From Eledone cirrhosa (Eukaryota), in NCBI GenBank assembly GCA_964016885.1, contig OZ024741.1, forward strand, positions 397,420,001-397,484,000: 64,000 bases of DNA. Direction: 5' to 3'. Below the pieces are notes generated by a model. The model saw only the letters and a list, made by a program, of their open reading frames with translations, did no database searches and was not told where the DNA came from. Positions 6,001 to 62,702 of the stretch are shown piece by piece. A program made the translations under genes and the position numbers. Numbering within the stretch: the stretch's first letter is position 1; every line of letters begins with the position of its first letter.

Positions 6001-9000
6001 TCTCTGTATGTGTGTCCTCCCTATCATTGACAGTCTCTGCCAGTCTGTCTCTGTATGTGTGTCCTCCCTATCATTGACAATTTCTGCCAGTCTGTCTCTG
6101 TATGTGTGTCCTCCCTATCATTGACAATCTCTGCCAGTCTGTCCCTGTATGTGTGTCCTCCCTATCATTGACAATCTCTGCCAGTCTGTCCCTGTATTTG
6201 TGTCCTCCCTATTATTGACAATCTCTGCCAGTCTGTCCCTGTATGTGTGTCCTCCCTATCATTGACAATCTCTGTCAGTCTGTCCCTGTATGTCTGTCCT
6301 CCCTATCATTGACAATCTCTGCCAGTCTGTCTCTGTATGTGTGTCCTCCCTATCATTGACAATCTCTGCCAGTCTGTCTCTGTATGTGTGTCCTCCCTAT
6401 CACTGACAATCTCTGCCAGTCTGTCTCTGTATGTGTGTCCTCCCTATCATTGACAATCTCTGCCAGTCTGTCCCTGTATGTGTGTCCTCCCTATTATTGA
6501 CAATCTCTGCCAGTCTGTCCCTGTATGTGTGTCCTCCCTATTATTGACAATCTCTGCCAGTCTGTCTCTGTATGTGTGTCCTCCCTATCATTGACAATCT
6601 CTGTCAGTCTGTCCCTGTATGTGTGTCCTCCTATCATTGACAATCTCTGTCAGTCTATCTCTGTATGTGTGTCCTCCCTATTATTGACAATCTCTGCCAG
6701 TCTGTCCCTGTATGTGTGTCCTCCCTATCATTGACAATCTCTGTCAGTCTGTCTCTGTATGTGTGTCCTTCCTATCATTGACAATCTCTGTCATTCTGTC
6801 TCTGTATGTGTGTCCTTCCTATCATTGACAATCTCTGCCAGTCTGTCTCTGTATGTGTGTCCTCCCTATCATTGACAATCTCTGCCAGTCTGTCTCTGTA
6901 TGTGTGTCCTCCCTATCATTGACAATCTCTGCCAGTCTGTCCCTGTATGTGTGTCCTCCCTATTATTGACAATCTCTGCCAGTCTGTCCCTGTATGTGTG
7001 TCCTCCCTATCATTGACAATCTCTGTCAGTCTGTCTCTGTATGTGTGTCCTTCCTATCATTGACAATCTCTGCCAGTCTGTCTCTGTATGTGTGTCCTCC
7101 CTATCATTGACAATCTCTGACAGTCTGTCCCTGTATGTGTGTCCTCCCTATCATTGACAATCTCTGTCAGTCTGTCTCTGTATGTGTGTCCTCCCTATTA
7201 TTGACAATCTCTGCCAGTCTGTCTCTGTATGTGTGTCCTCCCTATCATTGACAATCTCTGCCAGTCTGTCTCTGTATGTGTGTCCTCCCTATTATTGACA
7301 ATCTCTGCCAGTCTGTCCCTGTATGTGTGTCCTCCCTATCATTGACAATCTCTGTCAGTCTGTCTCTGTATGTGTGTCCTTCCTATCATTGACAATCTCT
7401 GTCAGTCTGTCTCTGTATGTGTGTCCTCCCTATCATTGACAATCTCTGCCAGTCTGTCCCTGTATGTGTGTCCTCCCTATCATTGACAATCTCTGTCAGT
7501 CTGTCCCTGTATGTGTGTCCTCCCTATTATTGACAATCTCTGCCAGTCTGTCTCTGTATGTGTGTCCTCCCTATCATTGACAATCTCTGCCAGTCTGTCC
7601 CTGTATGTGTGTCCTCCCTATCATTGACAATCTCTGCCAGTCTGTCTCTGTATGTGTGTCCTCCCTATCATTGACAATCTCTGCCAGTCTGTCCCTGTAT
7701 GTGTGTCCTCCCTATTATTGACAATCTCTGCCAGTCTGTCTCTGTATGTGTGTCCTCCCTATCATTGACAATCTCTGCCAGTCTGTCTCTGTATGTGTGT
7801 CCTCCCTATCACTGACAATCTCTGCCAGTCTGTCTCTGTATGTGTGTCCTCCCTATCATTGACAATCTCTGCCAGTCTGTCCCTGTATGTGTGTCCTCCC
7901 TATTATTGACAATCTCTGCCAGTCTGTCCCTGTATGTGTGTCCTCCCTATTATTGACAATCTCTGCCAGTCTGTCTCTGTATGTGTGTCCTCCCTATCAT
8001 TGACAATCTCTGTCAGTCTGTCCCTGTATGTGTGTCCTCCTATCATTGACAAACTCTGTCAGTCTGTCTCTGTATGTGTGTCCTCCCTATTATTGACAAT
8101 CTCTGCCAGTCTGTCCCTGTATGTGTGTCCTCCCTATCATTGACAATCTCTGTCAGTCTGTCTCTGTATGTGTGTCCTTCCTATCATTGACAATCTCTGT
8201 CATTCTGTCTCTGTATGTGTGTCCTTCCTATCATTGACAATCTCTGCCAGTCTGTCTCTGTATGTGTGTCCTCCCTATCATTGACAATCTCTGCCAGTCT
8301 GTCTCTGTATGTGTGTCCTCCCTATCATTGACAATCTCTGCCAGTCTGTCCCTGTATGTGTGTCCTCCCTATTATTGACAATCTCTGCCAGTCTGTCCCT
8401 GTATGTGTGTCCTCCCTATCATTGACAATCTCTGTCAGTCTGTCTCAGTATGTGTGTCCTTCCTATCATTGACAATCTCTGCCAGTCTGTCTCTGTATGT
8501 GTGTCCTCCCTATCATTGACAATCTCTGACAGTCTGTCCCTGTATGTGTGTCCTCCCTATCATTGACAATCTCTGTCAGTCTGTCTCTGTATGTGTGTCC
8601 TCCCTATTATTGACAATCTCTGCCAGTCTGTCTCTGTATGTGTGTCCTCCCTATCATTGACAATCTCTGCCAGTCTGTCTCTGTATGTGTGTCCTCCCTA
8701 TTATTGACAATCTCTGCCAGTCTGTCCCTGTATGTGTGTCCTCCCTATCATTGACAATCTCTGTCAGTCTGTCTCTGTATGTGTGTCCTTCCTATCATTG
8801 ACAATCTCTGTCAGTCTGTCTCTGTATGTGTGTCCTCCCTATCATTGACAATCTCTGCCAGTCTGTCCCTGTATGTGTGTCCTCCCTATCATTGACAATC
8901 TCTGTCAGTCTGTCCCTGTATGTGTGTCCTCCCTATTATTGACAATCTCTGCCAGTCTGTCTCTGTATGTGTGTCCTCCCTATCATTGACAATCTCTGCC

Positions 9001-12000
9001 AGTCTGTCCCTGTATGTGTGTCCTCCCTATCATTGACAATCTCTGCCAGTCTGTCTCTGTATGTGTGTCCTCCCTATCATTGACAATCTCTGCCAGTCTG
9101 TCCCTGTATGTGTGTCCTCCCTATTATTGACAATCTCTGCCAGTCTGTCCCTGTATGTGTGTCCTCTCTATTATTGACAATCTCTGTCAGTCTGTCTCTG
9201 TATGTGTGTCCTCCCTATCATTGACAATCTCTGCCAGTCTGTCCCTGTATCTGTGTCCTCCCTATCATTGACAATCTCTGTCAGTCTGTCCCTGTATGTG
9301 TGTCCTCCCTATCATTGACAATCTCTGCCAGTCTGTCTCTGTATGTGTGTCCTCCCTATCATTGACAATCTCTGCCAGTCTGTCCCTGTATGTCTGTCCT
9401 CCCTATCATTGACAATCTCTGCCAGTCTGTCTCTGTATGTGTGTCCTCTCTATCATTGACAATCTCTGCCAGTCTGTCCCTGTATGTGTGTCCTCCCTAT
9501 CATTGACAATCTCTGCCAGTCTGTCTCTGTATGTGTGTCCTCCCTATCATTGACAATCTCTGCCAGTCTGTCCCTGTATGTGTGTCCTCCCTATTATTGA
9601 CAATCTCTGCCAGTCTGTCCCTGTATGTGTGTCCTCCCTATCATTGACAATCTCTGCCAGTCTGTCCCTGTATGTGTGTCCTCCCTATCATTGACAATCT
9701 CTGCCAGTCTGTCTCTGTATGTGTGTCCTCCCTATCATTGACAATCTCTGCCAGTCTGTCCCTGTATCTGTGTCCTCCCTATCATTGACAATCTCTGTCA
9801 GTCTGTCCCTGTATGTGTGTCCTCCCTATCATTGACAATCTCTGCCTGTCTGTCCCTGTATTTGTGTCCTCCCTATTATTGACAATCTCTGCCAGTCTGT
9901 CCCTGTATGTGTGTCCTCCCTATCATTGACAATCTCTGTCAGTCTGTCCCTGTATGTCTGTCCTCCCTATCATTGACAATCTCTGCCAGTCTGTCTCTGT
10001 ATGTGTGTCCTCCCTATCATTGACAATCTCTGCCAGTCTGTCCCTGTATGTGTGTCCTCCCTATCATTGACAATCTCTGCCAGTCTGTCTCTGTATGTGT
10101 GTCCTCCCTATCATTGACAATCTCTGCCAGTCTGTCTCTGTATGTGTGTCCTCCCTATCATTGACAATCTCTGCCAGTCTGTCTCTGTATGTGTGTCCTC
10201 CCTATCATTGACAATCTCTGCCAGTCTGTCCCTGTATGTGTGTCCTCCCTATTATTGACAATCTCTGCCAGTCTGTCCCTGTATGTGTGTCCTCCCTATT
10301 ATTGACAATCTCTGCCAGTCTGTCTCTGTATGTGTGTCCTCCCTATCATTGACAATCTCTGTCAGTCTGTCCCTGTATGTGTGTCCTCCCTATCATTGAC
10401 AATCTCTGTCAGTCTGTCTCTGTATGTGTGTCCTCCCTATTATTGACAATCTCTGCCAGTCTGTCCCTGTATGTGTGTCCTCCCTATCATTGACAATCTC
10501 TGTCAGTCTGTCTCTGTATGTGTGTCCTTCCTATCATTGACAATCTCTTCCAGTCTGTCTCTGTATGTGTGTCCTCCCTATCATTGACAATCTCTGTCAT
10601 TCTGTCTCTGTATGTGTGTCCTTCCTATCATTGACAATCTCTGCCAGTCTGTCTCTGTATGTGTGTCCTCCCTATCATTGACAATCTCTGCCAGTCTGTC
10701 TCTGTATGTGTGTCCTCCCTATCATTGACAATCTCTGCCAGTCTGTCCCTGTATGTGTGTCCTCCCTATTATTGACAATCTCTGCCAGTCTGTCCCTGTA
10801 TGTGTGTCCTCCCTATCATTGACAATCTCTGTCAGTCTGTCTCTGTATGTGTGTCCTTCCTATCATTGACAATCTCTGCCAGTCTGTCTCTGTATGTGTG
10901 TCCTCCCTATCATTGACAATCTCTGACAGTCTGTCCCTGTATGTGTGTCCTCTCTATTATTGACAATCTCTGTCAGTCTGTCTCTGTATGTGTGTCCTCC
11001 CTATCATTGACAATCTCTGCCAGTCTGTCCCTGTATCTGTGTCCTCCCTATCATTGACAATCTCTGTCAGTCTGTCCCTGTATGTGTGTCCTCCCTATCA
11101 TTGACAATCTCTGCCAGTCTGTCTCTGTATGTGTGTCCTCCCTATCATTGACAATCTCTGCCAGTCTGTCCCTGTATGTCTGTCCTCCCTATCATTGACA
11201 ATCTCTGCCAGTCTGTCTCTGTATGTGTGTCCTCTCTATCATTGACAATCTCTGCCAGTCTGTCCCTGTATGTGTGTCCTCCCTATCATTGACAATCTCT
11301 GCCAGTCTGTCTCTGTATGTGTGTCCTCCCTATCATTGACAATCTCTGCCAGTCTGTCCCTGTATGTGTGTCCTCCCTATTATTGACAATCTCTGCCAGT
11401 CTGTCCCTGTATGTGTGTCCTCCCTATCATTGACAATCTCTGCCAGTCTGTCCCTGTATGTGTGTCCTCCCTATCATTGACAATCTCTGCCAGTCTGTCT
11501 CTGTATGTGTGTCCTCCCTATCATTGACAATCTCTGCCAGTCTGTCCCTGTATCTGTGTCCTCCCTATCATTGACAATCTCTGTCAGTCTGTCCCTGTAT
11601 GTGTGTCCTCCCTATCATTGACAATCTCTGCCTGTCTGTCCCTGTATTTGTGTCCTCCCTATTATTGACAATCTCTGCCAGTCTGTCCCTGTATGTGTGT
11701 CCTCCCTATCATTGACAATCTCTGTCAGTCTGTCCCTGTATGTCTGTCCTCCCTATCATTGACAATCTCTGCCAGTCTGTCTCTGTATGTGTGTCCTCCC
11801 TATCATTGACAATCTCTGCCAGTCTGTCCCTGTATGTGTGTCCTCCCTATCGTTGACAATCTCTGCCAGTCTGTCCCTGTATTTGTGTCCTCCCTATTAT
11901 TGACAATCTCTGCCAGTCTGTCCCTGTATGTGTGTCCTCCCTATCATTGACAATCTCTGTCAGTCTGTCCCTGTATGTCTGTCCTCCCTATCATTGACAA

Positions 12001-14328
12001 TCTCTGCCAGTCTGTCTCTGTATGTGTGTCCTCCCTATCATTGACAATCTCTGCCAGTCTGTCCCTGTATGTGTGTCCTCCCTATCATTGACAATCTCTG
12101 CCAGTCTGTCTCTGTATGTGTGTCCTCTCTATCATTGACAATCTCTGCCAGTCTGTCTCTGTATGTGTGTCCTCCCTATCATTGACAATCTCTGCCAGTC
12201 TGTCTCTGTATGTGTGTCCTCCCTATCATTGACAATCTCTGCCAGTCTGTCCCTGTATGTGTGTCCTCCCTATTATTGACAATCTCTGCCAGTCTGTCCC
12301 TGTATGTGTGTTCTCCCTATTATTGACAATCTCTGCCAGTCTGTCTCTGTATGTGTGTCCTCCCTATCATTGACAATCTCTGTCAGTCTGTCCCTGTATG
12401 TGTGTCCTCCCTATCATTGACAATCTCTGTCAGTCTGTCTCTGTATGTGTGTCCTCCCTATTATTGACAATCTCTGCCAGTCTGTCCCTGTATGTGTGTC
12501 CTCCCTATCATTGACAATCTCTGTCAGTCTGTCTCTGTATGTGTGTCCTTCCTATCATTGACAATCTCTTCCAGTCTGTCTCTGTATGTGTGTCCTCCCT
12601 ATCATTGACAATCTCTGTCAGTCTGTCCCTGTATGTGTGTCCTCCCTATCATTGACAATCTCTGTCAGTCTGTCTCTGTATGTGTGTCCTCCCTATCATT
12701 GACAATCTCTGTCAGTTTGTCTCTGTATGTGTGTCCTCCCTATCATTGACAATCTCTGCCAGTCTGTCTCTGTATGTGTGTCCTCCCTATCATTGACAAT
12801 CTCTGCCAGTCTGTCCCTGTATGTGTGTCCTCCCTATTATTGACAATCTCTGCCAGTCTGTCCCTGTATGTGTGTCCTCCCTATCATTGACAATCTCTGT
12901 CAGTCTGTCTCTGTATGTGTGTCCTTCCTATCATTGACAATCTCTGCCAGTCTGTCTCTGTATGTGTGTCCTCCCTATCATTGACAATCTCTGACAGTCT
13001 GTCCCTGTATGTGTGTCCTCCCTATCATTGACAATCTCTGTCAGTCTGTCTCTGTATGTGTGTCCTCCCTATTATTGACAATCTCTGCCAGTCTGTCTCT
13101 GTATGTGTGTCCTCCCTATCATTGACAATCTCTGCCAGTCTGTCTCTGTATGTGTGTCCTCCCTATTATTGACAATCTCTGCCAGTCTGTCCCTGTATGT
13201 GTGTCCTCCCTATCATTGACAATCTCTGTCAGTCTGTCTCTGTATGTGTGTCCTTCCTATCATTGACAATCTCTGTCAGTCTGTCTCTGTATGTGTGTCC
13301 TCCCTATCATTGACAATCTCTGCCAGTCTGTCTCTGTATGTGTGTCCTCCCTATCATTGACAATCTCTGTCAGTCTGTCCCTGTATGTGTGTCCTCCCTA
13401 TTATTGACAATCTCTGCCAGTCTGTCTCTGTATGTGTGTCCTCCCTATCATTGACAATCTCTGACAGTCTGTCCCTGTATGTGTGTCCTCCCCATCATTG
13501 ACAATCTCTGTCAGTCTGTCTCTGTATGTGTGTCCTCCCTATTATTAACAATCTCTGCGAGTCTGTCTCTGTATGTGTGTCCTCCCTATTATTGACAATC
13601 TCTGCCAGTCTGTCTCTGTATGTGTGTCCTCCCTATCATTGACAATCTCTGCCAGTCTGTCCCTGTATGTGTGTCCTCCCTATCATTGACAATCTCTGCC
13701 AGTCTGTCCCTGTATGTGTGTCCTCCCTATCATTGACAATCTCTGTCAGTCTGTCTCTGTATGTGTGTCCTCCCTATTATTAACAATCTCTGCGAGTCTG
13801 TCTCTGTATGTGTGTCCTCCCTATCATTGACAATCTCTGCCAGTCTGTCCCTGTATGTGTGTCCTCCCTATCATTGACAATCTCTGCCAGTCTGTCTCTG
13901 TATGTGTGTCCTCCCTATCATTGACAATCTCTGTCAGTCTGTCCCTGTATGTGTGTCCTCCCTATCATTGACAATCTCTGCCAGTCTGTCCCTGTATGTG
14001 TGTCCTCCCTATCATTGACAATCTCTGCCAGTCTGTCCCTGTATGTGTGTCCTCCCTATCATTGACAATCTCTGCCAGTCTGTCTCTGTATATGTGTCCT
14101 CCCTATCATTGACAATCTCTGCCAGTCTGTCCCTGTATGTGTGTCCTCCCTATTATTGACAATCTCTGCCAGTCTGTCCCTGTATTTGTGTCCTCCCTAT
14201 TATTGACAATCTCTGCCAGTCTGTCTCTGTATGTGTGTCCCCCCCTATCATTGACAATCTCTGCCAGTCTGTCTCTGTATGTGTGTCCCCCCTATCATTG
14301 ACAATCTCTGCCTGTCTGTCTCTGTTTG
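1..14328. repeat. 47-bp satellite array (about 305 copies, open at window start)
   Basis: Unit TCCTCCCTATCATTGACAATCTCTGCCAGTCTGTCTCTGTATGTGTG repeats at 1, 48, 95... with mostly C/T variants at three positions; ends near 14328. Confidence 0.99.
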
Positions 14329-14330
14329 TT

Positions 14331-17980: not shown

Positions 17981-18019
17981 TGAACAAATACTTTCATGCT
18001 TTCGCATTCTTCAGGTTCA
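17981..18019 (-). ncRNA. Minimal type I hammerhead ribozyme
   Basis: Minus: UGAAC CUGAAGA AUGC GAAA GCAU GAAA GUAU UU GUUCA; 5-bp stem I, 4-bp stem II with GAAA loop. Confidence 0.8.
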
Positions 18020-21914: not shown

Positions 21915-23960
21915 TTCCAGCGAGCGCCGCCTTCTGAGTGCAATTGTGGCTCTCACCAATAGGCTCATCCATGGCGCCCTGGACCCTTACGCCCGAGGCC
22001 TCTTTTTTTTCGGCCAGCCTCACCACTCTCAGGAAGAAAGAGAGTGGCATATTGCTGTAGGCAATGTCTTCCGGAGGCTGGCTGCCAATGTGATCTGCAA
22101 GTCCGTAACACACAAACTGGGTGTCGGCGTGTCCGGTGGCTGTGAGGGGGCCGTCATGCAACCAGGCAGTTCTTCAACAGCTGTCCATCGGAACCGGCAT
22201 CCGGGGACTCCAGGCAATCATTGTCAAGCTTGACATCAGGAATGCCTTAAACTGCTTGCGCCGAGACCATCTGCTCGAGGCCTGCCTCAGCCGAGCCCCC
22301 TCTGCCTACCCGCTGGCCTACCTGTCGTATGGAGCCTCGAGCATGTTCCTTGCTGCTGATACGGTCATACCCTCGGCTACTGGGGTCCAACAGGGCGACC
22401 CTTTGGGACCGCTCCTGTTCGCCCTTGGTATTGATCACATCGCCCGGAGTATCACGGCCCCTCTCAACGTTTGGTATCTGGATGATGCTACGTTGAGCGG
22501 CCCATACCAACTGTCTGCCATGACCTTCAATCAGTGGTCCCTGCCCTGGCGGGAATCGGCCTCCAGGTCAACTCGGCCAAGTCGGAGGTGGTGAATGTCA
22601 GCCTCGATGCTGAGAGTTTTGCAGCCTCTGTCTTGGACGTGCAGTCCATTCTCCACCAGGTTCAGGTGACCCCCAAAGAGGATGTCTTCATCCTCGGGTC
22701 ACCGATCCACCCACCGGCCATCCGTTCCACCATCAGGTCCAGGCTTCAATAACTCCAGACTCTCACGAGCCGACTGGGCGTGATTGACGGCCACCCAGCT
22801 CTCTTTCTGCTGAGGAACTGCTTCGCCATACCGAAAACTCCTCTATACCCTTCGCAGCGCTCCGTGCTACACCCACACATCTCTCCTCGCTGACCTCGAT
22901 ACTTGTATCTGAGCAGCAGCCGAGGAGATATGCAACGTCAAGTTTGACGACATAGGGTGGCAACAGGCCATTTTACCTGTCAGGTATGGCGGTCTTGGCC
23001 TCCGGTCCCCGATCTTACTAGCCTTTCCAGCGTATCTTTCGTCGATAACCTCGTGCCACGTCCTCGTCAGCAGGGTTCTTCAAAACACAACAGAACCCTC
23101 TGTGTTCAGAGAACGTGAGGCCGCCTCTGACACGTGGGACCGGCTGGGACTTAGCCCAGTAGACGTCCCTCCTCCTTCTCCCCCTGTTGACGTCAAGTCC
23201 GCCAAAGCACTTGGGATGCCATCGAGTGCAACCTGGCCTCAGACAGGCTCACGCGCCAGCTCAACCAGCACCGCCTTGCTTGTTTTCATGCGGCCTCCAA
23301 ACACCACAGTGGTGCCTGGCTCCATGTCCTGCCCTCCTTCTCCACTGACACGCAGTTAGACAACCATATCCTGCGCATCGGCGTTTCCATGAGGCTCGGC
23401 CTCCGGATCTGCCAGCCACACCAATGTCGCTGCGATTCCACCGTGGACTCTTTCGGCCTTCACCCGCTTTCCTGTCGCCACAGTGCCGGCCGCATTCCAC
23501 GCCATGCTGCCCTCAACGAGGTCATTAAGCATGGCTTGGAAGCTGCAGGCTTCCCTTCCCAGCTCGAGCCCATGGGGCTGGATTGAGGGGACGGCAAAAG
23601 GCCAGATGACCATCTTCCCGTTCCGCGGTGGCAAACCCCTCGTCTGGGATGCCATTTGCACCGACACTTTCTGCAGCCGCATCCTGGTGCAGTCTACGAC
23701 TGACCCAGGTTCTGCTGCACGTCGGGCCGAGGAGGCCAAACTCCTCAAATACCGGTCGCTCTCCGACAGGTTTGCGGTCGTACCCCTGGCAGTGGAGACT
23801 TCTGGTGTCCTCGGCCCCAGGGCTACCTCCTTACTCACCACCATAGGCGCTGAGCTGGCCAGCCGCAGGTGAGCCCCGCGAGTTGGAGTGGCTTTTCCAG
23901 TGCGTCTCCCTTGCCGCCCTCCGGGGAAACGCCTTCTCCATTCTGTCTGCCGGGGCTGTG
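21915..23960 (+). mobile_element. 5'-truncated, frameshifted CRE-clade non-LTR retrotransposon (RT + zinc knuckle + RLE)
   Basis: KLDIRNALN, GVQQGDPLGPLLFALGI, VWYLDDATL RT motifs; CRCDSTVDSFGLHPLSC...RHAALNEVI; PFRGGKPLVWDA...EEAKLLKY...PLAVETSG RLE domain. Confidence 0.9.
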
Positions 23961-24184
23961 GGTGGGTCCATGGCGTATCATTTTTGTAAATATGACAACA
24001 GTTTATGATTTGATTTTATTGTTGATATTACTTCTTTATGCATACAACGAGTTATGGAGCATCTCTTCAACATCGCCAGAACCAACGAGAAACATAGATT
24101 CCTCCTTGTGTTTCTTATTTATATAAGATAGGTCGTGTATTTCCTAAGGTCAGCATGATTGTGACTTTAGCTCTGAAGGTCATA

Positions 24185-34928: not shown

Positions 34929-36945
34929 TTAATTGTAAGTTGTGATGTTGCTGTTCCATTCATGTTTTCTATTTAATTTTGGTTGGAGTTTATTTATGTT
35001 TATTGCCTCTGTGATTTGTCTAAACATTGCGTCTTTTCTGTGTGTAGATTCTATTTTTATTTCTATGTTCTCTAATTTACCCTTGTGTTCTATCTTAGCA
35101 TGTTGGTAGAGTACAAATGATTCTTTACTATCTTGAAGGTCTCGCCAGTGTTCGTTTATCCGTTCCCCTACACTACGAACTGTCTCACCTATGTATACTA
35201 TATTTTTGTCTCTACATTGTCCTTCAGTACATCTTATGCTATATACTACATTTCTAGTTTTACAGTTAATATGGGGGCTTAATTTACAGGTTATACATTT
35301 CTTATCTATACAGGGGGTCTTTGAAAAGGGTATGTCTTGCTAATAAGTGTTTTTACGGAGGTACCTGGTCTTTCTACTATCTTACTATTGAGTTTATGTT
35401 TATCTAGGGCCCTTCTAAATTTGTAAGCTAATTCACCTCTAGGGGTTGTATCGATGAACATTACACTCTGGTATTTATTGCTATCATACCATGAGTTTAT
35501 TCTATTAGCCTTATTCTTAGTTCTTTCTATTCTATTCCAAAATTTGCTCCTATACAAGGGGCAGGTCCCATTTGTGTCATTATTTACCATTTTTTTCCCA
35601 TTTGGTTCTGGCTCCTCTATACACTCTGATTTTATCTCTCTGATTTTAACCAGAAAACTGCATACGGTGGATGAAGTGTTGTATGTGTCTCTCTAGTTCT
35701 TCGGGGTTGCACATGCGGGACACGTTTCTCATCACCCGTACCAAATCCGCACTCAGTATGTTGATTTTGGTATGGTCCGAAACAGCTGAGTTTCGGTGGA
35801 TCAGATATTTGGAAGTCATGGGTTTGGCATAATGGGAATGGAGGATTTGTTTTTTGTTATTAATGGTATCTAACCAGAGCTCTGTGTCTAGTACAGGTAA
35901 TCGATGGTTGGGGTGTTTACTTGGGTAGTCTATAGTAACTCTAATACTCTGGTGGATGGAGTTAGCTATTTGCTGGATGCTCTCCATTGTGTTTTTCTCT
36001 AATTCCTGACTGTTCTCTAGTGGGGGTGTTTTAACTACGATGTTTATATCATCAACGTAGCGGGAGTACATTATCAGGGTTAAGGGGTCTTCTAATTGTT
36101 CTTTAAGTTTAAGTTTAAGTCTACTGTCCCACCATACCATGAATAAGTTAGCTATGTCGCCTGCAATGCTAACACCAATGGCTGCTCCTTCCTCTTGGGC
36201 ATATGTTTTTCCATTAAATTTGAACATATGTTCCTTAAGGGTTAATTTTATGCTGGCTCCCACCGCATGTGCAATCATTTTCTTTAGTTCATCGTGGTTT
36301 TTGGGTGTCCGTATGGCTCTGGTCCACCCGTTCCATCTATTTGTGTGGGTTTTCTTGGCCATTGAGGTAATGGTAGGTGGTCTGCCTCTTGCTGGTCTTG
36401 TAGGGCACAGGTTGCTAAGGTCATATGTGTCTAGGTAATTATTACTATAGGTAAGTTTAAGTAGGAGTCCCAGCTCACTGGTATCAATCCCACGGAACTT
36501 AACATTGCTCTCACTGATCATTTCTACGCATTTCTCCACAGCAAAATCCACGTCAATAGATGGATACAGGGACACAACATCCATACTACCTATTATGCAG
36601 TTTGTTAGGTCCCTAGATTGGTTACCCTCGCCGATTCTGCTGAGGAGGTCCTCCGTGCTGTCACATACATCTGGGGACATTTCAATGATGGGGCGTATGA
36701 TCAGGGAGAGGAAGTAGGACAGTCTGTAGTTACTAGCAATGTTAGCTCCACAGACTGGCCGTGTTGGTGGTCCCGTGACAGGGTCACTGCCAGTTTTATG
36801 GTCTTTTCGAAGCCCATACAACGCTGGCACGTCATTGTTCCAGGCCTGGAAGTTGTTGGCAGTCCTTTTGTTGGGTTGCATTATATTCGTCCACATCACC
36901 ATATGGGCATTGAGGGCTTTTTCTCTATCCTCATGCTCTTGTGTT
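34929..36945 (-). pseudogene. Penelope RT-GIY-YIG polyprotein relic
   Basis: PALYGLRKDHK, PTRPV, GSMDVVSLYPSID, GAAIG, YSRYVDD, LPVLD; then NVVYSIRC...IVYIGETVRSVGERINEH at about 35150-35260; frame breaks near 35600-35650 and 35306. The first ~35 aa of the predicted 467-aa ORF come from the inverted pLTR. Confidence 0.9.
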
Positions 36946-36965
36946 AGCAAAGAAAAGAATCCCCA

Positions 36966-37008
36966 GTCACTGAAGAGGTCACATAATGTGTGACGAAAGA
37001 ACTTTGAC
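36966..37008 (+). ncRNA. Hammerhead ribozyme in inverted pLTR
   Basis: GUCA CUGAAGA G GUCACA UAAUG UGUGAC GAAA GAAC UU UGAC. Confidence 0.82.
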
Positions 37009-37296
37009 AATATATAAACAACCATCTGGTTGTGGAACCAACCAACCAACCGGAAATTTATAAATTCCTAAATTTATAAATTTATTATAATAAATTTAAG
37101 TGAAAGCAACTGGTGCGTGTGTTTCTTATTGGCAACATGACCCTCCCAAAGTATAACAATATCGGTTTCAACACACGTTTTCAGATAAAGAATCTTGCTA
37201 AACAAATTCAGAAACGAAATATATATATATAGATATAAATTAAAGTATAGAAATTGTTGTGAGCGTGAAGCCAACAGTATTTCATAATATATAAGT

Positions 37297-46866: not shown

Positions 46867-47145
46867 AAAAGGCAAAGAATGACTTCACTTGTAGTTCTAA
46901 ACAATTTCATTTAATTTTATGATATTATAATTTTACAATTTGGTTTTGTAGATCTAGTAAGTTCTTATTTAACTTCGGTGGGGAGATTTTTAAAGATTCC
47001 TGATTAATTTTCCTGGAGAAAAATCTCCCCACCGAAGTTAACAAAGAACTTACTAGATCTCCAAAATCAAATTGTAAAATTATAATATCATAAAATTAAA
47101 TCAAATTGTTTAGAACTACAAGTGAAGTCATTCTTTTCCTTTTTT
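46867..47145. repeat. About 125-bp-arm imperfect palindrome
   Basis: 46867-46991 is inverted at 47019-47145 with several mismatches; TA flanks. Confidence 0.85.
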
Positions 47146-47184
47146 CATATATATATATATATATTTATTAAAATAACAGATTAA

Positions 47185-47235
47185 AGTTTAAGCAAAGAAT
47201 CGCTGCTTTCACCCTTAACGGGATCTTCTGAAACT
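47185..47235 (-). ncRNA. Hammerhead-topology motif with CAGAAGA core (inverted pLTR)
   Basis: Reverse complement of 50188-50238 with one stem II change. Confidence 0.6.
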
Positions 47236-47461
47236 AACAAAGTCAATCTGTAAACGCAGAACTGGATATTTCAAAATACGTTGCAACCGGAGGAAGACAG
47301 GAAGACGATACTTTGGTTCGTGGAAACGTTCGCTGGCAAAGAACGGGAAAAAACGAATAATACGTCATTAATAGGAGCGGTGAAAACCAATTACGCGCAA
47401 AGACAGAACCACGTTTATGGTATAAAAGAGGTCGTAGACTAATATTAAGGATTCTAACGCC

Positions 47462-49259
47462 GTGCACGTCCATTCCGACAAAACTGGCAACCTATATCAA
47501 GTGGAGCGCAGTACTTACCATCAACTACTACATAATGCTGTAACTAAGGATTACCGTAAAACTAATCGGTGTGTCATCAATGAAATCAACGATGCTGGGT
47601 TTAAAATCACATCTGATCTCAACATCCTGGACCGGACCGAACCTCTGGACCCTATCTCTCCCCACTTTACCCTGAAGGATCACAAATCCAATTTTCCGAA
47701 CAACCCCTCTATTCGGCTTATTAACCCTACGAAGTCCGATTTAGGTAGACTTAGTAAAACGATTCTTGATAGAATTATACCTGAAATTAGAAGTTTGGCC
47801 CCTCTCGCACTGTGGAACAATTCTTTCGAGGTGATTGATTGGTTCAACAGCATATGTAACAAGGAACATTGCCGTTTTATCCAATTCGACATCAACAATT
47901 ACTATTCCTCCATCACTTTACCACTTCTCCTGAGAGCTATCAATTTCGCTAAAACACTCACAGTGGTTAAGGATTTCGAAGTTGATGTCATCCTTAATGC
48001 CCGAAAGTCGGTGATTAATTTCGACGACTCTATTTGGATTAAAAAATCCAATAGTACCCCATTCGACGTGAGTATGGGCGCCAGTGACTCTGCGGAGGTT
48101 ACTGATCTTATTGGCCTTTTCCTTCTTTTCTCTATCAAGGACGAATTCCCCAACGCGGGCGGTGGTTTGTACCGTGACGATGGTCTTTTGACCATGACTA
48201 AGTGCGGACCTCGTGCTTGCGACAGGTTCAGAAAAGAACTCACAGCCTTCTTTAAAGGCTTCAACCTCTCTATACAGGTTGAGGCCAATCTCTCGGTCGT
48301 TAATTACCTCGACGTTACCCTCAATTTATTGAATGGGTTGTATTACCCGTATAGAAAGCCGAATGATACGCTTAATTACATAAGTAAGCATTCCAACCAT
48401 CCTGCCAGCATAACCAAGAACCTGGTAAAAAAACGTTTCGTTGAGGCTTTCCCGTCTTTCCACCAACGAGCGCATTTTCAACGACCATTCCACTTATTAC
48501 AATGAAGCTCTTGCTGGATTTGTCGATAAGGTAGCATATACAGAGTACGAAAATAGACCTAGAAGAAATAGATCCCGTCGCATTTGTTGGTTTAACCCAC
48601 CATATAATATGGAGGTGGCCACACCATTAGCTAAGATCTTTCTTTCCCTTATTACGAAGCATTTTCCCCCTACACATAAATATAGTAAAATTTTTAATAG
48701 AAATACTATTAAAATTTCTTACTCTACGACTCCTAACCTTGCACATAACATCACAGCTTCAAATTTAGCTAAACTACCTAGCCGTAGGAACACGTGCAAC
48801 CCTGTAGTTAGTACTAACTGTAATTGTAGGAATCGGGCTGATTGCCCCCTATCCGGGAAATGCATCTCTAGTAACATTGTCTACAAATGTAAGGTTGTAA
48901 CACCCACGTCCCGTAGGGCCTACATAGGGTTAACCGCCAATAGTTTCAAGCAGCGTCTTTACATGCATACCCATTCTTTTCGTTACCCTCTAAGAAGGAA
49001 TATGACGTCACTTTCAGCTTATATCTGGAGTCTAAAAGACAACCACACCCAATATAAGTTACACTGGGAGATCCTAGCTAGGGCTAGATCGTATAACGGA
49101 AATAAAAGACCATGTGACCTCTGCGCCGCTGAAGCCCTGGAAATACTCTACGCCACAGACCACATCTTAAACAAAAAATCTGAGGCAATTTCGGCTTGTA
49201 AACATAAATTGCACAACACTTTCCTGTATTACAGCCCCACGTTATACCCTAACGGATAG
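47462..49259 (+). pseudogene. Penelope RT-GIY-YIG ORF with single frameshift
   Basis: DKTGNLY, LKDHK, IRLINPTKS, FIQFDINNYYSSI, FDVSMGASDSAE, GLYRDDGL, NYLDVTL; +1 in A7 run near 48427; WFNPPY, CNCRNRADCPLSGKC, IVYKC...AYIGLT (GIY-YIG). Confidence 0.93.
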
Positions 49260-50187
49260 TACGACCTATACGTGGATATTTTACGTCCTGATGTGGGAGC
49301 TAATTATATGTTTTGTTTATTCCTTTACTTATTTGCATAGGTAAGTATATATTACCTGTATGTTTTGTGAAGGTTGTATACCTTCTCGTACGTATATTTG
49401 ACTGTTATGGCGTATAATTTTTACATATTCTGGTATTTAGGGTTTGGCTATGTGTATACGGGAGTTTTGCGTCTGCGTGAGTATGCAGGTTCGTACGTAT
49501 GGTGGGTGTGTGTATATGTGTACTTCTTGTTTTAGTTGACTTACGTCTCCGAACATTCGTGTATTTATTTGTAGGTATGTGTGTGCGCTTGTTATATACG
49601 TATTTATTTACTTATATACGTTTATATAATTATTTATTTATTTGTACACAAGCATACACACACACACATATTTATATGTGCGTGGTTTTGTATACCTATG
49701 GTAAGGTTTTGCGTATGCTTGTGTATGTACGTATCTGTTTGCGTGTATGTATTTATTTGTTTCTATTACTTCTGTATTGTATTTATTTACTTTGTTCTTA
49801 ACTCTGTAGCGGAGATTCATTTGGTCTCCTAGTTAGAATTTTAGTCTACAACTTCTGCTATACCATTTACGTGGTTTTGTCTTTGCGTGCTATTGTTCTC
49901 CACGCTCCACATATGACTTATTATCTTCGTTTTTTCGTTCATTGCCAGAGAACGTCTCTATGCACCATCTAAGAGAACATTAGTCTACGACCTCTTTTAT
50001 ACCATAAACGTGGTTCTGTTTTTGCGCGTAATTGGTTTTCACCGCTCCTATTAATGACGTATTATTCGTTTTTTTCCCGTTCTTTGCCAGCGAACGTTTC
50101 CACGAACCAAAGTATCGTCTTCCTGTCTTCCTCCGGTTGCAACGTTTTTTGAAATATCCACTTCTGCGTTTACAGATTGACTTTGTT

Positions 50188-50238
50188 AGTTTCAGAAGAT
50201 CCCGTTAGGGGTGAAAGCAGCGATTCTTTGCTTAAACT
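50188..50238 (+). ncRNA. Hammerhead-topology motif with CAGAAGA core (U4A)
   Basis: AGUUU CAGAAGA U CCC GUUAG GGG U GAAA GCA GCGAUUCUU UGC UU AAACU. Confidence 0.62.
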
Positions 50239-50344
50239 TTAATCTGTTATTTTAATAAATATTTGCTCTACGGTTCTTATATATTTGATATATATTTTCT
50301 TTATCGAGCCCTCTTTGGATTTTAGTCTTCAATTTTATTATTAT

Positions 50345-50379
<35 letters not shown>

Positions 50380-53155: not shown

Positions 53156-53191
<36 letters not shown>

Positions 53192-53256
53192 TATGTATGT
53201 ATGTAAATAAGTGCCGTACTAAGAGTGAGAAATGAAATTTCGTTTCATTCTATTCC

Positions 53257-53296
<40 letters not shown>

Positions 53297-55707: not shown

Positions 55708-56987
55708 TAATCTATAAAGCTCAGTGTGTGGTCATGCTCCTTTCTTATAGAAATCTACGATATAGAATTTCTTCAATTGAAATTTACAATTCAGTATTCG
55801 AAATAGCTTCGATTGCGTCTTGGCACAGATAATATTTTCAATTTCACCCACAATTACGCAAAAAATAGATAAAACTCAATATTTTACGATTTTTCTCTGT
55901 CATTTAAACTGCTAAACTCTTTCCACTACCATTCAAAATCAATACAACTTCATACTTCTGCTACTTTCTCTTTCCAAGTTTGATGGTGATACTGTCCGTT
56001 TTACTCTCTCATATCATCTGCTTACCTCTATCTACAACCCACACATTTTGCTACTTTCTCTTTTATACTTCAAACTTACTGATTTATTTCCAAACGCATA
56101 CAAACACACACTCACTTCAAAACATTTATTCAACAACACGCGATAAATCTTTTTTAAAACCTCTTTTCCAAACGCATACAAACACACACTCACTTCAACA
56201 ACAACAACAACAATCTGCCTTTTATAGATAATGATAAACAATAATATCCTCTATGAGGTCACTAAACCTGCTAGAAACAGCAGCTAACTCTCCCCCATAC
56301 CACAACCCTCCCTACTGTATTAAATTTAGAAAACATATCTTCTATGAGGTCACTAAACCTGCTAGAAACAGCAGCTAACTCTCCCCCATATCACACCACT
56401 CCCTACTGTCTTAAATTTAGAAAACACAGATCCTCTATGAGGTTACTAAACCTGCTAGAAACAGCAGCTAACTCTCCATCATCTCACACCCCTCCCTACT
56501 GTCTTAAATTTAGAAAACATATCTTCTATGAGGTCACTAAACCTGCTAGAAACAGCAGCTAACTCTCCCCCATATCACACCACTCCCTACTGTCTTAAAT
56601 TTAGAAAACACATATCCTCTATGAGGTCACTAAACCTGCTAGAAACAACAGCTAACTCTCCCTCATATCACAACCCTCCCTACTGTCTTAAATTTAGAAA
56701 ACACACAGACAACCATGCAGAACAACTCCATCGCAGCTCTGTTGTTCGGCTGGCATCGTCTACGCGCGTGTTGCGCAAGTACTGTGAAACAATAAATTTC
56801 AACACTTTTTTGCACAGAGATAATATCCATAGGCGAAACTACAATTGTCACTGCTGGCACAGCTCCTGCTCCCAAGTCTGCAATTCATTCACCCAATGCC
56901 TGGCAGACAAAAAAGTGCTGCCATAAAATGGGTGGTGCAACCTAACTTTGGTAACTTAAAGACCCCGAGCAACGCCGGGCTTTAATG

Positions 56988-59964: not shown

Positions 59965-60172
59965 TTCTGATTTAGGCACAAGACCAACAATTTAGGGGGG
60001 AGGGGAAAGTCGATTAAATCAACCCCAGTGAATTACTGGTATTTTATTTATCGACCCCGTAAGGAGGAAAGTCAACGCTAACCTCGGCGGGATTTGAACT
60101 CAGAACGTAAAGGGCTGTAACTCTATGCCACAAAGAAAGTTTTCAGATGCCCAACCGATACTGCTAATCCAC
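59965..60172 (-). mobile_element. SINE copy
   Basis: Full SINE core and reverse tRNA head. Confidence 0.82.
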
Positions 60173-60600
60173 CCCCCTTTCTGTGTATCTGTGTATGTCA
60201 GCGTGTGTGTTTGTGCATATCTGTGTGTGTGATTGTATATATATATGCGTGTGTGTGTGTATCTGTGTGTATATATATGTGAGTGTATCTGTCTATGTGT
60301 ATGTGTGTGTGTGAGTCTGTAAGTGAATGTATGTGTTTTATATTGTACATAGTGTGTCGAAGTGATATTTCAGCACTTCTCAATCATAGAAAAATATATG
60401 AAAGAAAAATGCACAGACAGATAGACAGATAGATAGATAGAGAGAGGGGGAGAGAGAGGGGGTGGAGATGGAGAGAGAGACAGGGAGGCAACAAAAGAGA
60501 CTTACAGAGGGTTGGGGGGCAACAAAAGGTAATTACAGAGAGAGAGAAAGAAAAAGACAGACAACAAAATAAAAATGCACAGACATACAGACAGTGAGAC

Positions 60601-60631
<31 letters not shown>

Positions 60632-60968
60632 GACAGACAACTAAAGAGAGGTACACAGACAGACAGAGAGAGAGCTAACAAAAGAGAGGTACACACGGTT
60701 GGTTAACAATCCGCCATACAAAGTTGGTAGAAAATGGCGTAGTTGGTAATTCAAAGATAGGGGCGATAACCGGAAAAGCGAATCTAGAACAAAATAATCG
60801 ATTTAGCAAAGATCATTAAAGAAAGTGTTTAATTAAAAGTGTTAACAATAGAAATGATTTTCTGTTAGCGGAAATCTCTTTAGTGTGTTGTTTTCACACT
60901 ATTGGGTATCTCATCTAGTTCAGTGAAACTACAAACTGACGCTGTATTCGCTTTATATTAGTCTGGCC

Positions 60969-61064
<96 letters not shown>

Positions 61065-61362
61065 TGAAAAAATGAAATTTCATTTCTCACTCTTAGTACG
61101 GCTGATACTTAAATATAAGTATGTATTAAGTATTCCTGTCAATCGATTGAACGTTTGAAATTATATACTTTCCTTATGCATATTAACGGCTGAGTAGCCT
61201 AATATGCATATCGAGTGAGTTAGTCGGCCGGGCGTACCGAATACGATAAATGGAAAAAATGGCCGACTAACTCACTCGATATGCAAATTAGGCTGCTCAG
61301 CCGTTAATATGCATAAGGAAAGTATATAATTTCAAACGTTCAATCGATTGACAGGAAGGTAT

Positions 61363-61405
61363 ACGGTGCTGATGATAGCTAATAAGCTAGAAACTAGTTC
61401 ACCGT
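61363..61405 (+). ncRNA. Minimal type I hammerhead ribozyme (unit 1)
   Basis: ACGGUG CUGAUGA UAGCU AAUA AGCUA GAAA CUAG UU CACCGU. Confidence 0.88.
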
Positions 61406-61785
61406 TCCTTTGACAGTGTTGAACAAAAGGTCAACGATGGTTGCCGAACACTGTACAGCTTAATTCGGGCTGTTTGTTTACAAACAGACCGAACATTATA
61501 ATAAATGTTCGGTAAACCCATACGTACATATATATATGTGTATATGTATGTATGATTATACATACTACTATACGTCTGTATACATATATGTATATACGTA
61601 TACATACTTATATTTAAGTAACAGCCGTACTAAGAGTGAGAAATGAAATTTCATTTTTTCCATTTATCGTTTTCGGTACGCCCGACCGACTAACTCACTC
61701 GATATGCAAATTAGGCTGCTCAGCCGTTAATATGCATAAGGAAAGTATATACTTTCAAACGTTCAATCGATTGACAGGAATGTAT

Positions 61786-61828
61786 ACGGTGCTGATGACA
61801 GCTAATAAGCTAGAAACTAGTTCATCGT
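61786..61828 (+). ncRNA. Minimal type I hammerhead ribozyme (unit 2)
   Basis: ACGGUG CUGAUGA CAGCU AAUA AGCUA GAAA CUAG UU CAUCGU; one C-A mismatch in stem II, one G-U in stem I. Confidence 0.8.
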
Positions 61829-62017
61829 TCCTTTGACAGTGTTGAAGAAAAGGGCAACGATGGTTGCCGAACATTATACGGCTTAATTTACAAACAAACC
61901 GAACATTATAATAAATGTTCGGTAAACCCATACGTACATATATATATGTGTACATGTATGCATGATTATATATACTACTGCACGTCTGTATACATATATG
62001 TATGTACGTATACATAC

Positions 62018-62089
<72 letters not shown>

Positions 62090-62162
62090 CATACTTATAT
62101 ATATATATATATATAATATCAATAATATTAATAAATGGTAGCTATCTTTAGAAAACCATATT

Positions 62163-62223
62163 TATTTTATTATACATATTTCAAGGGTACCAATATTTTA
62201 GTACGCTTTCGTCAGATAAAATA
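62163..62223 (-). ncRNA. Type I hammerhead ribozyme (family of 51736)
   Basis: Minus: UAUUUUAU CUGACGA AAGCGUAC...GUACCCUU GAAA UAUGUA UA AUAAAAUA. Confidence 0.82.
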
Positions 62224-62501: not shown

Positions 62502-62542
<41 letters not shown>

Positions 62543-62545
<3 letters not shown>

Positions 62546-62702
62546 GTTTAAATAGCTTGACAAATTGAACATTGTGGCAGGCAAAATCCCACACACAATA
62601 CCAAAGTAACGAAAGAACTAACAGGTTGCTTTCGTTACTTTGGTATTGTGTGTGGGATTTTGCCTGCCACAATGTTCAATTTGTCAAGCTATTTAAACGT
62701 AT
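62543..62702. repeat. Perfect about 73-bp-arm palindrome next to (TA)n
   Basis: ATACGTTTAAATAGC...GTAACGAAAG / CTTTCGTTAC...GCTATTTAAACGTAT with a 13-nt spacer. Confidence 0.9.

What the first reader, a model, noticed from the sequence alone, without database searches (positions are those of the whole stretch)
61065..62020. 423-bp tandem hammerhead dimer: candidate cephalopod retrozyme / circRNA-producing unit
Seen: two head-to-tail non-coding units, each with a complete minimal type I hammerhead exactly 423 bp apart; stem III is a loop-less palindrome (ACUAGU); inverted unit pieces lie 5'; (TA)n flanks; a further fragment of the family sits at about 53210-53260. Established: minimal hammerheads with palindromic stem III in Penelope pLTRs cleave as dimers, and metazoan non-LTR retrozymes are tandem hammerhead repeats of a few hundred bp that give circular RNAs. 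Inference: a plus transcript would self-process to a 423-nt monomer (61400-61822) that could circularise and be mobilised by a Penelope RT.
Basis: partly seen in the sequence, partly recalled or inferred. Interest (0 to 1): 0.85.

Follow-up and report, generated by a model that had tools for sequence, protein, structure and literature searches.

The report
Hammerhead retrozyme with Penelope-type insertion ends
This is an aged copy of a protein-free repeat that occurs thousands of times in this animal genome, each unit carrying a predicted self-cutting RNA motif, and the shape of its insertions says it is likely pasted around by the enzymes of Penelope-type jumping genes, possibly from a circular RNA that nobody has yet detected here.

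Summary
In detail: two type I hammerheads 423 bp apart, an inverted arm 5', (TA)n on both sides. Two corrections: the ribozyme is the canonical Schistosoma/newt type (extended helix I, loop-loop motif, covariation), not the minimal Penelope type, and the plus arm is 1.84 units. The locus is an old copy (units about 4% apart) of a minor GUU subfamily (810 exact cores) of an ORF-less family with 25,048 exact cores, arrays of 2 to 40+ units and a young sister family. No RT-linked copy was found. Insertions carry the Penelope footprint: 87 of 100 end at one of two fixed sites 51 nt apart before (TA)n, 5' ends are scattered, about half are two-armed, and 21 of 23 classifiable two-armed copies use one site per arm. 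Verdict: a non-LTR retrozyme, likely mobilised by a Penelope-type RT; a known kind, not found in print for cephalopods in my searches. Cleavage, expression and circles are untested (no RNA run), and copying from uncut linear transcripts remains a strong rival. The scan already reported this family type many times on other DNA (21 notes, at least 3 genomes).

The parts
61261..62020 (+). Main arm: 1.84 head-to-tail units of the ORF-less hammerhead repeat; 5'-truncated; 3' end at fixed site P1, running into (TA)n
   Evidence: L001 1499-2264
61059..61261 (-). Inverted arm, head-to-head with the main arm: two pieces (61132-61261, 61059-61126) with an internal deletion that removes the ribozyme; 3' end at fixed site P2, then (TA)n
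   Evidence: printed arm sequences
61356..61410 (+). Hammerhead 1, canonical type I: distal helix and internal loop, helix I 61363-61368 with 61400-61405, core 61369-61375, helix II 61376-61389, GAAA, palindromic helix III 61393-61398; predicted cut after GUU at 61399
61779..61833 (+). Hammerhead 2: same, with a C-A mismatch at the base of helix II, a G-U pair in helix I and a G-to-T change (61781) in the distal helix; predicted cut after 61822
61400..61822 (+). Predicted 423-nt monomer between the two cut sites; no ORF over 36 codons on this strand; folds far better than shuffles
   Evidence: z -7.4; z -4.9 without the microsatellite
61617..61667 (+). 51-nt 'tail' between the two fixed 3'-end sites P1 (about 61616) and P2 (about 61667), with a short hairpin; inferred RT start sites
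   Evidence: PLE tail defined in PMC11167929
61521..61610 (+). TA/TG-rich internal microsatellite hairpin; source of the unit-length variation (about 420-510 bp across subfamilies)
61281..61288 (+). Octamer-like motif (second copy 61704-61711), in a block shared with the sister family; possible internal promoter element, weak lead
60970..61061 (.). (TC)n then (TA)n flank, left
62020..62119 (.). (TA)n flank, right
53166..53260 (+). Separate, short 3'-end fragment of a related subfamily, ending at P2 between (TA)n tracts

Best explanation
The locus is one two-armed insertion of an abundant, ORF-less hammerhead repeat (a non-LTR retrozyme) that is likely copied into (TA)n sites by a Penelope-type RT-endonuclease, most likely from a self-cleaved and re-ligated circular RNA. 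Shown: the family, its size, its tandem arrays, the lack of an ORF, the two fixed 3' ends, scattered 5' ends and one-end-per-arm rule. Inferred steps: (1) tandem copies are transcribed; (2) pairs of ribozymes complete helix III through the palindrome and cut after GUA/GUU; (3) a host ligase closes monomer and sometimes dimer circles; (4) a Penelope-type protein (Neptune clade my guess) cuts both strands of an AT-rich target and starts reverse transcription at two internal sites 51 nt apart, one from each strand, running round the template for up to several units; (5) the two truncated cDNAs are joined head to head. Odds by step: retrozyme family 0.9, Penelope-type mobilisation 0.85, circle as the usual template 0.5, this aged locus itself making a 423-nt circle 0.2.
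For: 25,048 exact degenerate cores, control 0; 110 GUU-type pairs and 1,645 GUA-type triples at unit spacing, controls 1 and 2. Helix I pairs in 100% of cells with both-side changes at 3 of 6 pairs and helix II at 4 of 5, in 10 chosen copies of subfamilies A and B (related rows, so not a probability). Loop residues match the Schistosoma tertiary motif (PMC2632901). Main-arm 3' ends: P1 48, P2 39, other 13 of 100 loci; homologous sites in sister family B; the same two-start 'tail' is the PLE signature in PMC11167929, where the protein extends both cut strands. Two-armed: 49 of 100 loci; 21 of the 23 with both arms classed use one site each, Fisher p 0.0003; 9 of 11 two-armed B loci likewise, 2 unclassed (read by eye). 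5' ends run through the cut site: about 41 of 100 copies break in a 60-nt stretch, 1 within 2 nt of the cut (by eye). Young arrays of 4-10 near-identical units keep the canonical ends. Neighbouring units share rare alleles (20 of 175) more than units of different loci (666 of 43,257). Near-intact Neptune-like ORFs (938 and 1,096 codons stop to stop) exist in the genome, and one such family shows two 3' ends before (TA)n.
Against: No RNA evidence of any kind. Rfam gives no hammerhead hit. Family A has C-A or U-U instead of G-C at the base of helix II in 111 of 125 copies, and forcing the two palindromes of this locus to pair costs about 7 kcal/mol. In Xenopus 8 of 9 predicted dimers did not cleave (bioRxiv 10.64898/2026.07.22.740005). 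In the anole PLE, ribozyme cleavage was not needed and uncut RNA was the main substrate (PMC11167929). Long satellites with 3- and 4-unit higher-order repeats show that DNA-level expansion also makes arrays. Inverted arms share rare alleles as often as tandem units (21 of 182), so that test shows a common source, not a circle; its control also mixes subfamilies. No autonomous partner shares sequence with the unit. The 100 loci are not a random sample: 80 were picked by similarity or by having two cores. 26 of 49 two-armed loci could not be classed, and 2 were P1+P1.
Confidence: 0.52

Rival explanations
1. Same family and same Penelope-type enzyme, but the template is an uncut linear read-through transcript of tandem arrays; arrays are renewed by DNA-level expansion and the ribozyme is dispensable for insertion.
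For: Uncut RNA was the main substrate and ribozyme mutants still inserted in the anole system (PMC11167929). Arrays of 40 and more units with higher-order repeats exist as possible sources. No 5'-end pile-up at the cut fits this as well as a circle.
Against: Compensatory changes between families A and B argue that the ribozyme fold is kept by selection. Dispersed arrays with zero to few differences and canonical ends on both arms (L228, L185, L181) are simplest from one reiterated template. Circles are the main form in coral, mussel and axolotl (PMC7229834).
Confidence: 0.36
2. Ordinary pseudo-LTR remnants of an autonomous Penelope-like element whose ORF lies further 5' in longer copies.
For: Full Penelope insertion anatomy; PLE protein fragments lie within the fetched flanks of 16 of 90 and 19 of 54 loci; 24 of 57 Xenopus retrozyme families matched known elements, nearly all PLE ends (bioRxiv 10.64898/2026.07.22.740005).
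Against: Units follow units directly, up to 10 and more. Of 55 5' flanks compared, none shared an extension other than the family itself or unrelated repeat ends. 1 of 30 GIY-YIG loci and 2 of 20 long-ORF PLE loci held a copy; the four neighbours I read in sequence were cut off by (TA)n, other repeats or orientation; the other neighbours were not read one by one. The PLE ORFs found carry different, PLE-type ribozymes.
Confidence: 0.06
3. A satellite spread by DNA mechanisms alone, with a vestigial ribozyme.
For: Satellite-like arrays with higher-order structure exist.
Against: Fixed 3' ends, scattered 5' ends, strand polarity and two-armed insertions on many chromosomes are not expected from unequal crossing-over.
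Confidence: 0.04

Closest known systems
Metazoan non-LTR retrozymes (coral, mussel, axolotl; Cervera and de la Pena 2020, PMC7229834; vertebrate survey bioRxiv 10.64898/2026.07.22.740005)
   Same: ORF-less, AT-rich tandem units of a few hundred bases, one canonical type I hammerhead per unit, monomers to long arrays, strongly self-paired predicted monomer, PLEs in the same genome. One-pair helix III with palindromic tetraloop as in axolotl HHR_Amex1; U-U at the base of helix II as in HHR_Amex2.
   Different: No RNA data here. The sections I read argue the PLE link from co-occurrence, tandem form and pLTR homology; here it is read from insertion ends (two fixed starts, one per arm, (TA)n). No sequence homology to an autonomous PLE was found. 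Most invertebrate retrozyme ribozymes are reported to cleave as monomers; this one has the amphibian-like dimer anatomy.
Penelope-like elements with GIY-YIG endonuclease (PMC8557442; anole Poseidon PAc, PMC11167929)
   Same: 5' truncation, partial tandems, inverted 5' copy, optional tail between two RT start sites, (TA)n bias.
   Different: No ORF; tail of 51 nt (69 in family B) against 30-40 in print; ribozyme canonical, not the minimal long-helix-II PLE form of PMC4209133.
Schistosoma Sm-alpha and newt satellite 2 hammerheads (PMC2632901, PMC6155905)
   Same: 6-bp helix I, internal loop with 5' U and extrahelical pyrimidine positions kept, six-base loop II ending in A, tandem organisation.
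   Different: Helix II base pair is mismatched in family A; internal promoter (snRNA type in newt, cited in PMC2220036) not shown here.
Non-autonomous Chlamys PLEs such as MRC1 (PMC8557442, passage)
   Same: ORF-less head-to-tail insertions with PLE anatomy.
   Different: Those generally resemble an autonomous family at the 3' end and most Chlamys lack hammerheads; this family has a hammerhead and no identified partner.

Membership tests
Metazoan non-LTR retrozyme | Canonical type I hammerhead in each unit | tested here: met
   against the definition in PMC4209133; no Rfam hit
Metazoan non-LTR retrozyme | Tandem units of a few hundred bases, dimers to multimers | tested here: met
   423 bp here; 420-510 bp in the family; arrays of 2 to 40+
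Metazoan non-LTR retrozyme | No protein-coding ORF; GC under 50% | tested here: met
   longest ATG frames 68 codons (minus, in the microsatellite) and 36 (plus); 36.9% GC for 60001-62000
Metazoan non-LTR retrozyme | No LTR, primer-binding site or polypurine tract | not tested
   no terminal-repeat-plus-body layout is seen in the loci, but no PBS/PPT search was run
Metazoan non-LTR retrozyme | Highly self-paired monomer | tested here: met
   predicted only: z -7.4, -4.9 without the microsatellite
Metazoan non-LTR retrozyme | Self-cleavage of the transcript | not testable with these tools
   needs an in vitro assay
Metazoan non-LTR retrozyme | Abundant linear and circular monomer RNA | not testable with these tools
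   no holder on record as RNA
Autonomous Penelope-like element | RT plus GIY-YIG ORF between the repeats | tested here: not met
Autonomous Penelope-like element | Minimal hammerhead (long helix II, short helix I, no defined loop 1) | tested here: not met
   PMC4209133
Penelope-type insertion (works like) | Two fixed 3' ends with an optional tail | tested here: met
   87 of 100 main arms at P1 or P2; family B at 229-235 or 301-303
Penelope-type insertion (works like) | 5' truncation, partial tandem, inverted 5' copy | tested here: met
   46 of 101 or 49 of 100 two-armed; 5' ends in all ten tenths of the unit
Penelope-type insertion (works like) | Microsatellite (TA)n bias | tested here: met
   printed 3' flanks; not tallied; whether the tract pre-exists was not resolved
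Penelope-type insertion (works like) | Sequence link to an autonomous partner | tested here: inconclusive
   none in 30 GIY-YIG loci and 20 long-ORF loci, out of 10,597 first-look candidates

The most novel reading that the evidence does not exclude
The family is a genomic fossil record of rolling reverse transcription on ribozyme circles: a Penelope-type RT dimer primes from both strands of the cut target at two start sites 51 nt apart on the same circular RNA, which explains the long-puzzling head-to-head arms of PLE insertions, and in-phase ABAB arrays (L182, L227, L243) record copying of dimer circles, as expected for a ribozyme that works in pairs.
Probability: 0.3. Interest if true: 0.75.

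Novelty: new member of a known kind. Interest (0 to 1): 0.45.

Why it matters
How animal retrozymes move is proposed, not shown, in the papers I read. A family with tens of thousands of copies, young subfamilies and two precisely placed start sites gives a 420-nt substrate with exact predictions for the existing in vitro Penelope assay, and the one-site-per-arm rule bears on how PLE inverted ends form. The window's own copy is an aged, minor member and is a poor test object; young GUA-type and family B arrays are better.

Tried and rejected
Rfam at gathering and at E up to 5: no hammerhead family; only microsatellite-driven miRNA hits. Sequencing runs: no RNA holder listed; four runs of unrecorded kind, contigs only, were laid on the locus and on a neighbouring PLE; no inference on expression was drawn. 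5' ends at the ribozyme cut (linear self-cleaved monomer as template): rejected, 1 of about 41 breaks within 2 nt (by eye); one stored locus (L047) starts there with 3-nt microhomology. A pile-up at monomer position 10-13 (6 of about 41; 4 stored loci at position 12, one being the same place) is too weak to claim. A 3'-over-5' copy gradient from 13,063 tail-motif matches against 810 cores was dropped once one search showed 25,048 cores across subfamilies. Hydra-like and Poseidon-like ORFs beside copies (L064, L065, L039, L131) proved to be separate insertions. Descent of L011 from a circle of this locus: it shares two rare alleles in the predicted phase but lacks four others; rejected as unproven. 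Octamer as an essential promoter: exact in 204 of 244 copies, as neutral decay would give, and altered in a young spreading subfamily. L082 was left out of the ABAB set because indels spoiled the end comparison. The first octamer tally matched nothing and the second only 43 copies.

Full report
Observation. The window holds two hammerhead cores at 61369 and 61792, 423 bases apart, in a direct repeat of 96%. The plus arm runs 61261 to about 62020 and is 1.84 units. An inverted arm (61261 down to 61059) abuts its 5' end and has lost its ribozyme through an internal deletion. (TA)n flanks both ends. A related 3' fragment lies at 53166-53260. Rfam finds no hammerhead model here.

The ribozyme. [quoted passage not shown] This one is canonical. 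Across 125 stored copies helix I pairs are kept, pair 3 being G-U 77, A-U 26, U-G 9, G-C 2, U-A 2, unpaired 9. A three-base bulge opposite one U and a distal helix follow, and loop II is a six-base loop ending in A in 124 of 125; these are the positions of the Schistosoma loop-loop contact (PMC2632901, passages). In 10 hand-picked copies of the subfamilies, 92.5% of cells pair, 8 of 16 pairs change on both sides, and slid controls reach at most 56%; most both-side changes come from the A/B split, so they are few events. Weak points: the base of helix II is C-A (60) or U-U (51) in family A, as U-U is in axolotl HHR_Amex2, which cleaved poorly as a monomer and well as a dimer (PMC7229834 section 15). 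That GUU is cut less well than GUA is recalled. The second ribozyme of the window has a G-to-T change in the distal helix, and pairing the two palindromes costs about 7 kcal/mol against the best fold.

The family. The window's exact core occurs 810 times; allowing subfamily letters, 25,048 times, control 0, and 99 of the first 100 listed are GUA. There are 110 GUU-type pairs (at least 2 of the 100 listed belong to a sister family) and 1,645 GUA-type triples. Arrays run from dimers to satellites of 40 and more units with 3- and 4-unit higher-order repeats. Sister family B (467 bp, best 40 hits 99-100% alike, 1,286 candidates) is colinear with A, ORF-less, with compensated helices. The window's two units differ at 10 of 245 sites: an old copy.

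No ORF. Of 55 5' flanks not occupied by an inverted arm, three pairs matched at the junction: the family itself, a Hydra-like PLE 3' end and another repeat end. One of 30 GIY-YIG loci and 2 of 20 long-ORF PLE loci held a copy. PLE fragments lie in the flanks of 16 of 90 and 19 of 54 loci (the sets do not overlap); I read four in sequence and found them separate; the rest were not read. A rare autonomous relative among 10,597 GIY-YIG candidates is not excluded. Clade names (Neptune, Hydra, Poseidon) rest on motifs described in PMC8557442 (passages) or recalled, not on a tree.

Insertion footprint. In 100 loci (80 picked by similarity or by having two cores, 20 by a tail motif, duplicates of one place dropped) the main arm ends at P1 in 48, at P2 51 bases further in 39, elsewhere in 13, mostly followed by (TA)n. 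Family B ends at the homologous sites. PMC11167929 (parts 1-2 of 4) shows that a PLE protein starts reverse transcription at two internal sites that bound the genomic 'tail', cuts AT-rich DNA and extends both strands. Half the loci are two-armed; of 23 with both arms classed, 21 use one site each, 2 use P1 twice, none P2 twice (p 0.0003); 26 were unclassed, among them the window, which by eye is P1 plus P2. In family B 9 of 11 two-armed loci follow the rule and 2 are unclassed (by eye). A Neptune-like family in the genome also shows two 3' ends before (TA)n (L124 against L128).

Template. 5' ends do not stop at the cut site (1 of about 41 breaks within 2 nt, by eye), so a self-cleaved linear monomer is not the usual template. 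That leaves circles or uncut multimers. Units of one locus share rare alleles (20 of 175 tandem, 21 of 182 inverted, 666 of 43,257 across loci). Young arrays with canonical ends are either uniform (L181, L185, L191, L228) or alternate AB in phase to the last partial unit (L182: 14-16 differences at lag 1, 0-4 at lag 2; L227: 10-14 against 0-6 over 9 monomers; L243 467/480 lengths; L189 weaker). These were chosen for being arrays, so no frequency is claimed. AB arrays are what a dimer circle would leave, and minor circular dimers were seen in vitro (PMC7229834, passage), but repeated DNA duplication gives them too, and the satellites show that route is open. Their differences are not A-to-G biased.

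Prior knowledge. Non-LTR retrozymes are described from coral, mussel and axolotl with circles shown and PLE mobilisation proposed (PMC7229834: sections 14, 15, 17 and passages; PMC7761336 and PMC6155905: passages). A 2026 preprint (10.64898/2026.07.22.740005, parts 1-3 of 5) links them to PLEs by co-occurrence and pLTR homology, and found cleavage in 1 of 9 dimers. Searches for hammerhead with octopus and Penelope, octopus with retrozyme and cephalopod with hammerhead listed no paper on a cephalopod retrozyme (listings only). I read no supplements; those of PMC7229834 and PMC8557442, the closed preprint files and repeat databases could hold one. The newt snRNA-type promoter was seen only as a citation (PMC2220036). 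The scan's own notes report this kind 21 times in at least 3 genomes; none by sequence or near this place. They are not independent support.

Verdict. A real, very abundant non-LTR retrozyme family, new member of a known kind, with a clear Penelope-type footprint; this locus is an aged minor copy. Interest 0.45; 0.75 if circle-templated, two-start copying is shown.

Noticed in passing
window 1-14329: A 47-bp satellite, about 305 copies, 95% matches, strongly strand-skewed.
   Followed up: no
window 47438-50350: Penelope-like element, Hydra-like by recalled motifs: RT and GIY-YIG-type frames broken by a frameshift near 48430; its ribozyme-like site near 50190 has a changed core; an inverted 3' piece lies at about 47000-47440.
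   Followed up: partly
window 34929-37067 (minus): Another broken PLE with RT and a zinc-finger-linked GIY-YIG domain.
   Followed up: partly
window 51744 (+), 62215 (-), 40035 (-), 18014 (-), 37472 (+): Five further hammerhead-like motifs of other families; the one at 18014 is the type found behind Neptune-like ORFs; the one at 62215 lies tail to tail with the finding across the (TA)n tract.
   Followed up: partly
L191, L073 1500-2200, L161-L180, L243: Sister retrozyme family B, 467 bp, very young (99% alike), G-C at the base of helix II, same two-end rule; a better test object than the window copy.
   Followed up: yes
L182, L227, L243, L189: Arrays alternating two unit types in phase up to the terminal partial unit.
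   Followed up: partly
G000:C1:51773334-51793413 and C1:96986534-97019471: The same unit expanded into long satellites with 3- and 4-unit higher-order repeats.
   Followed up: partly
L036, L050, L058, L159: Four copies start exactly at monomer position 12, the base of the extended helix I; possible RT stall site.
   Followed up: partly
L121, L123: Neptune-like PLE frames of 938 and 1,096 codons stop to stop, candidates for recently active helper families.
   Followed up: no
window 62542-62702: Perfect 74-bp inverted repeat next to a (TA)n tract, probably the inverted end of another PLE-type insertion.
   Followed up: no
window 22109-24015: Broken RT-like and endonuclease-like frames of a GC-rich non-LTR element; family not tested.
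   Followed up: no
window 56244-56705: Five copies of a 91-93-bp tandem unit.
   Followed up: no
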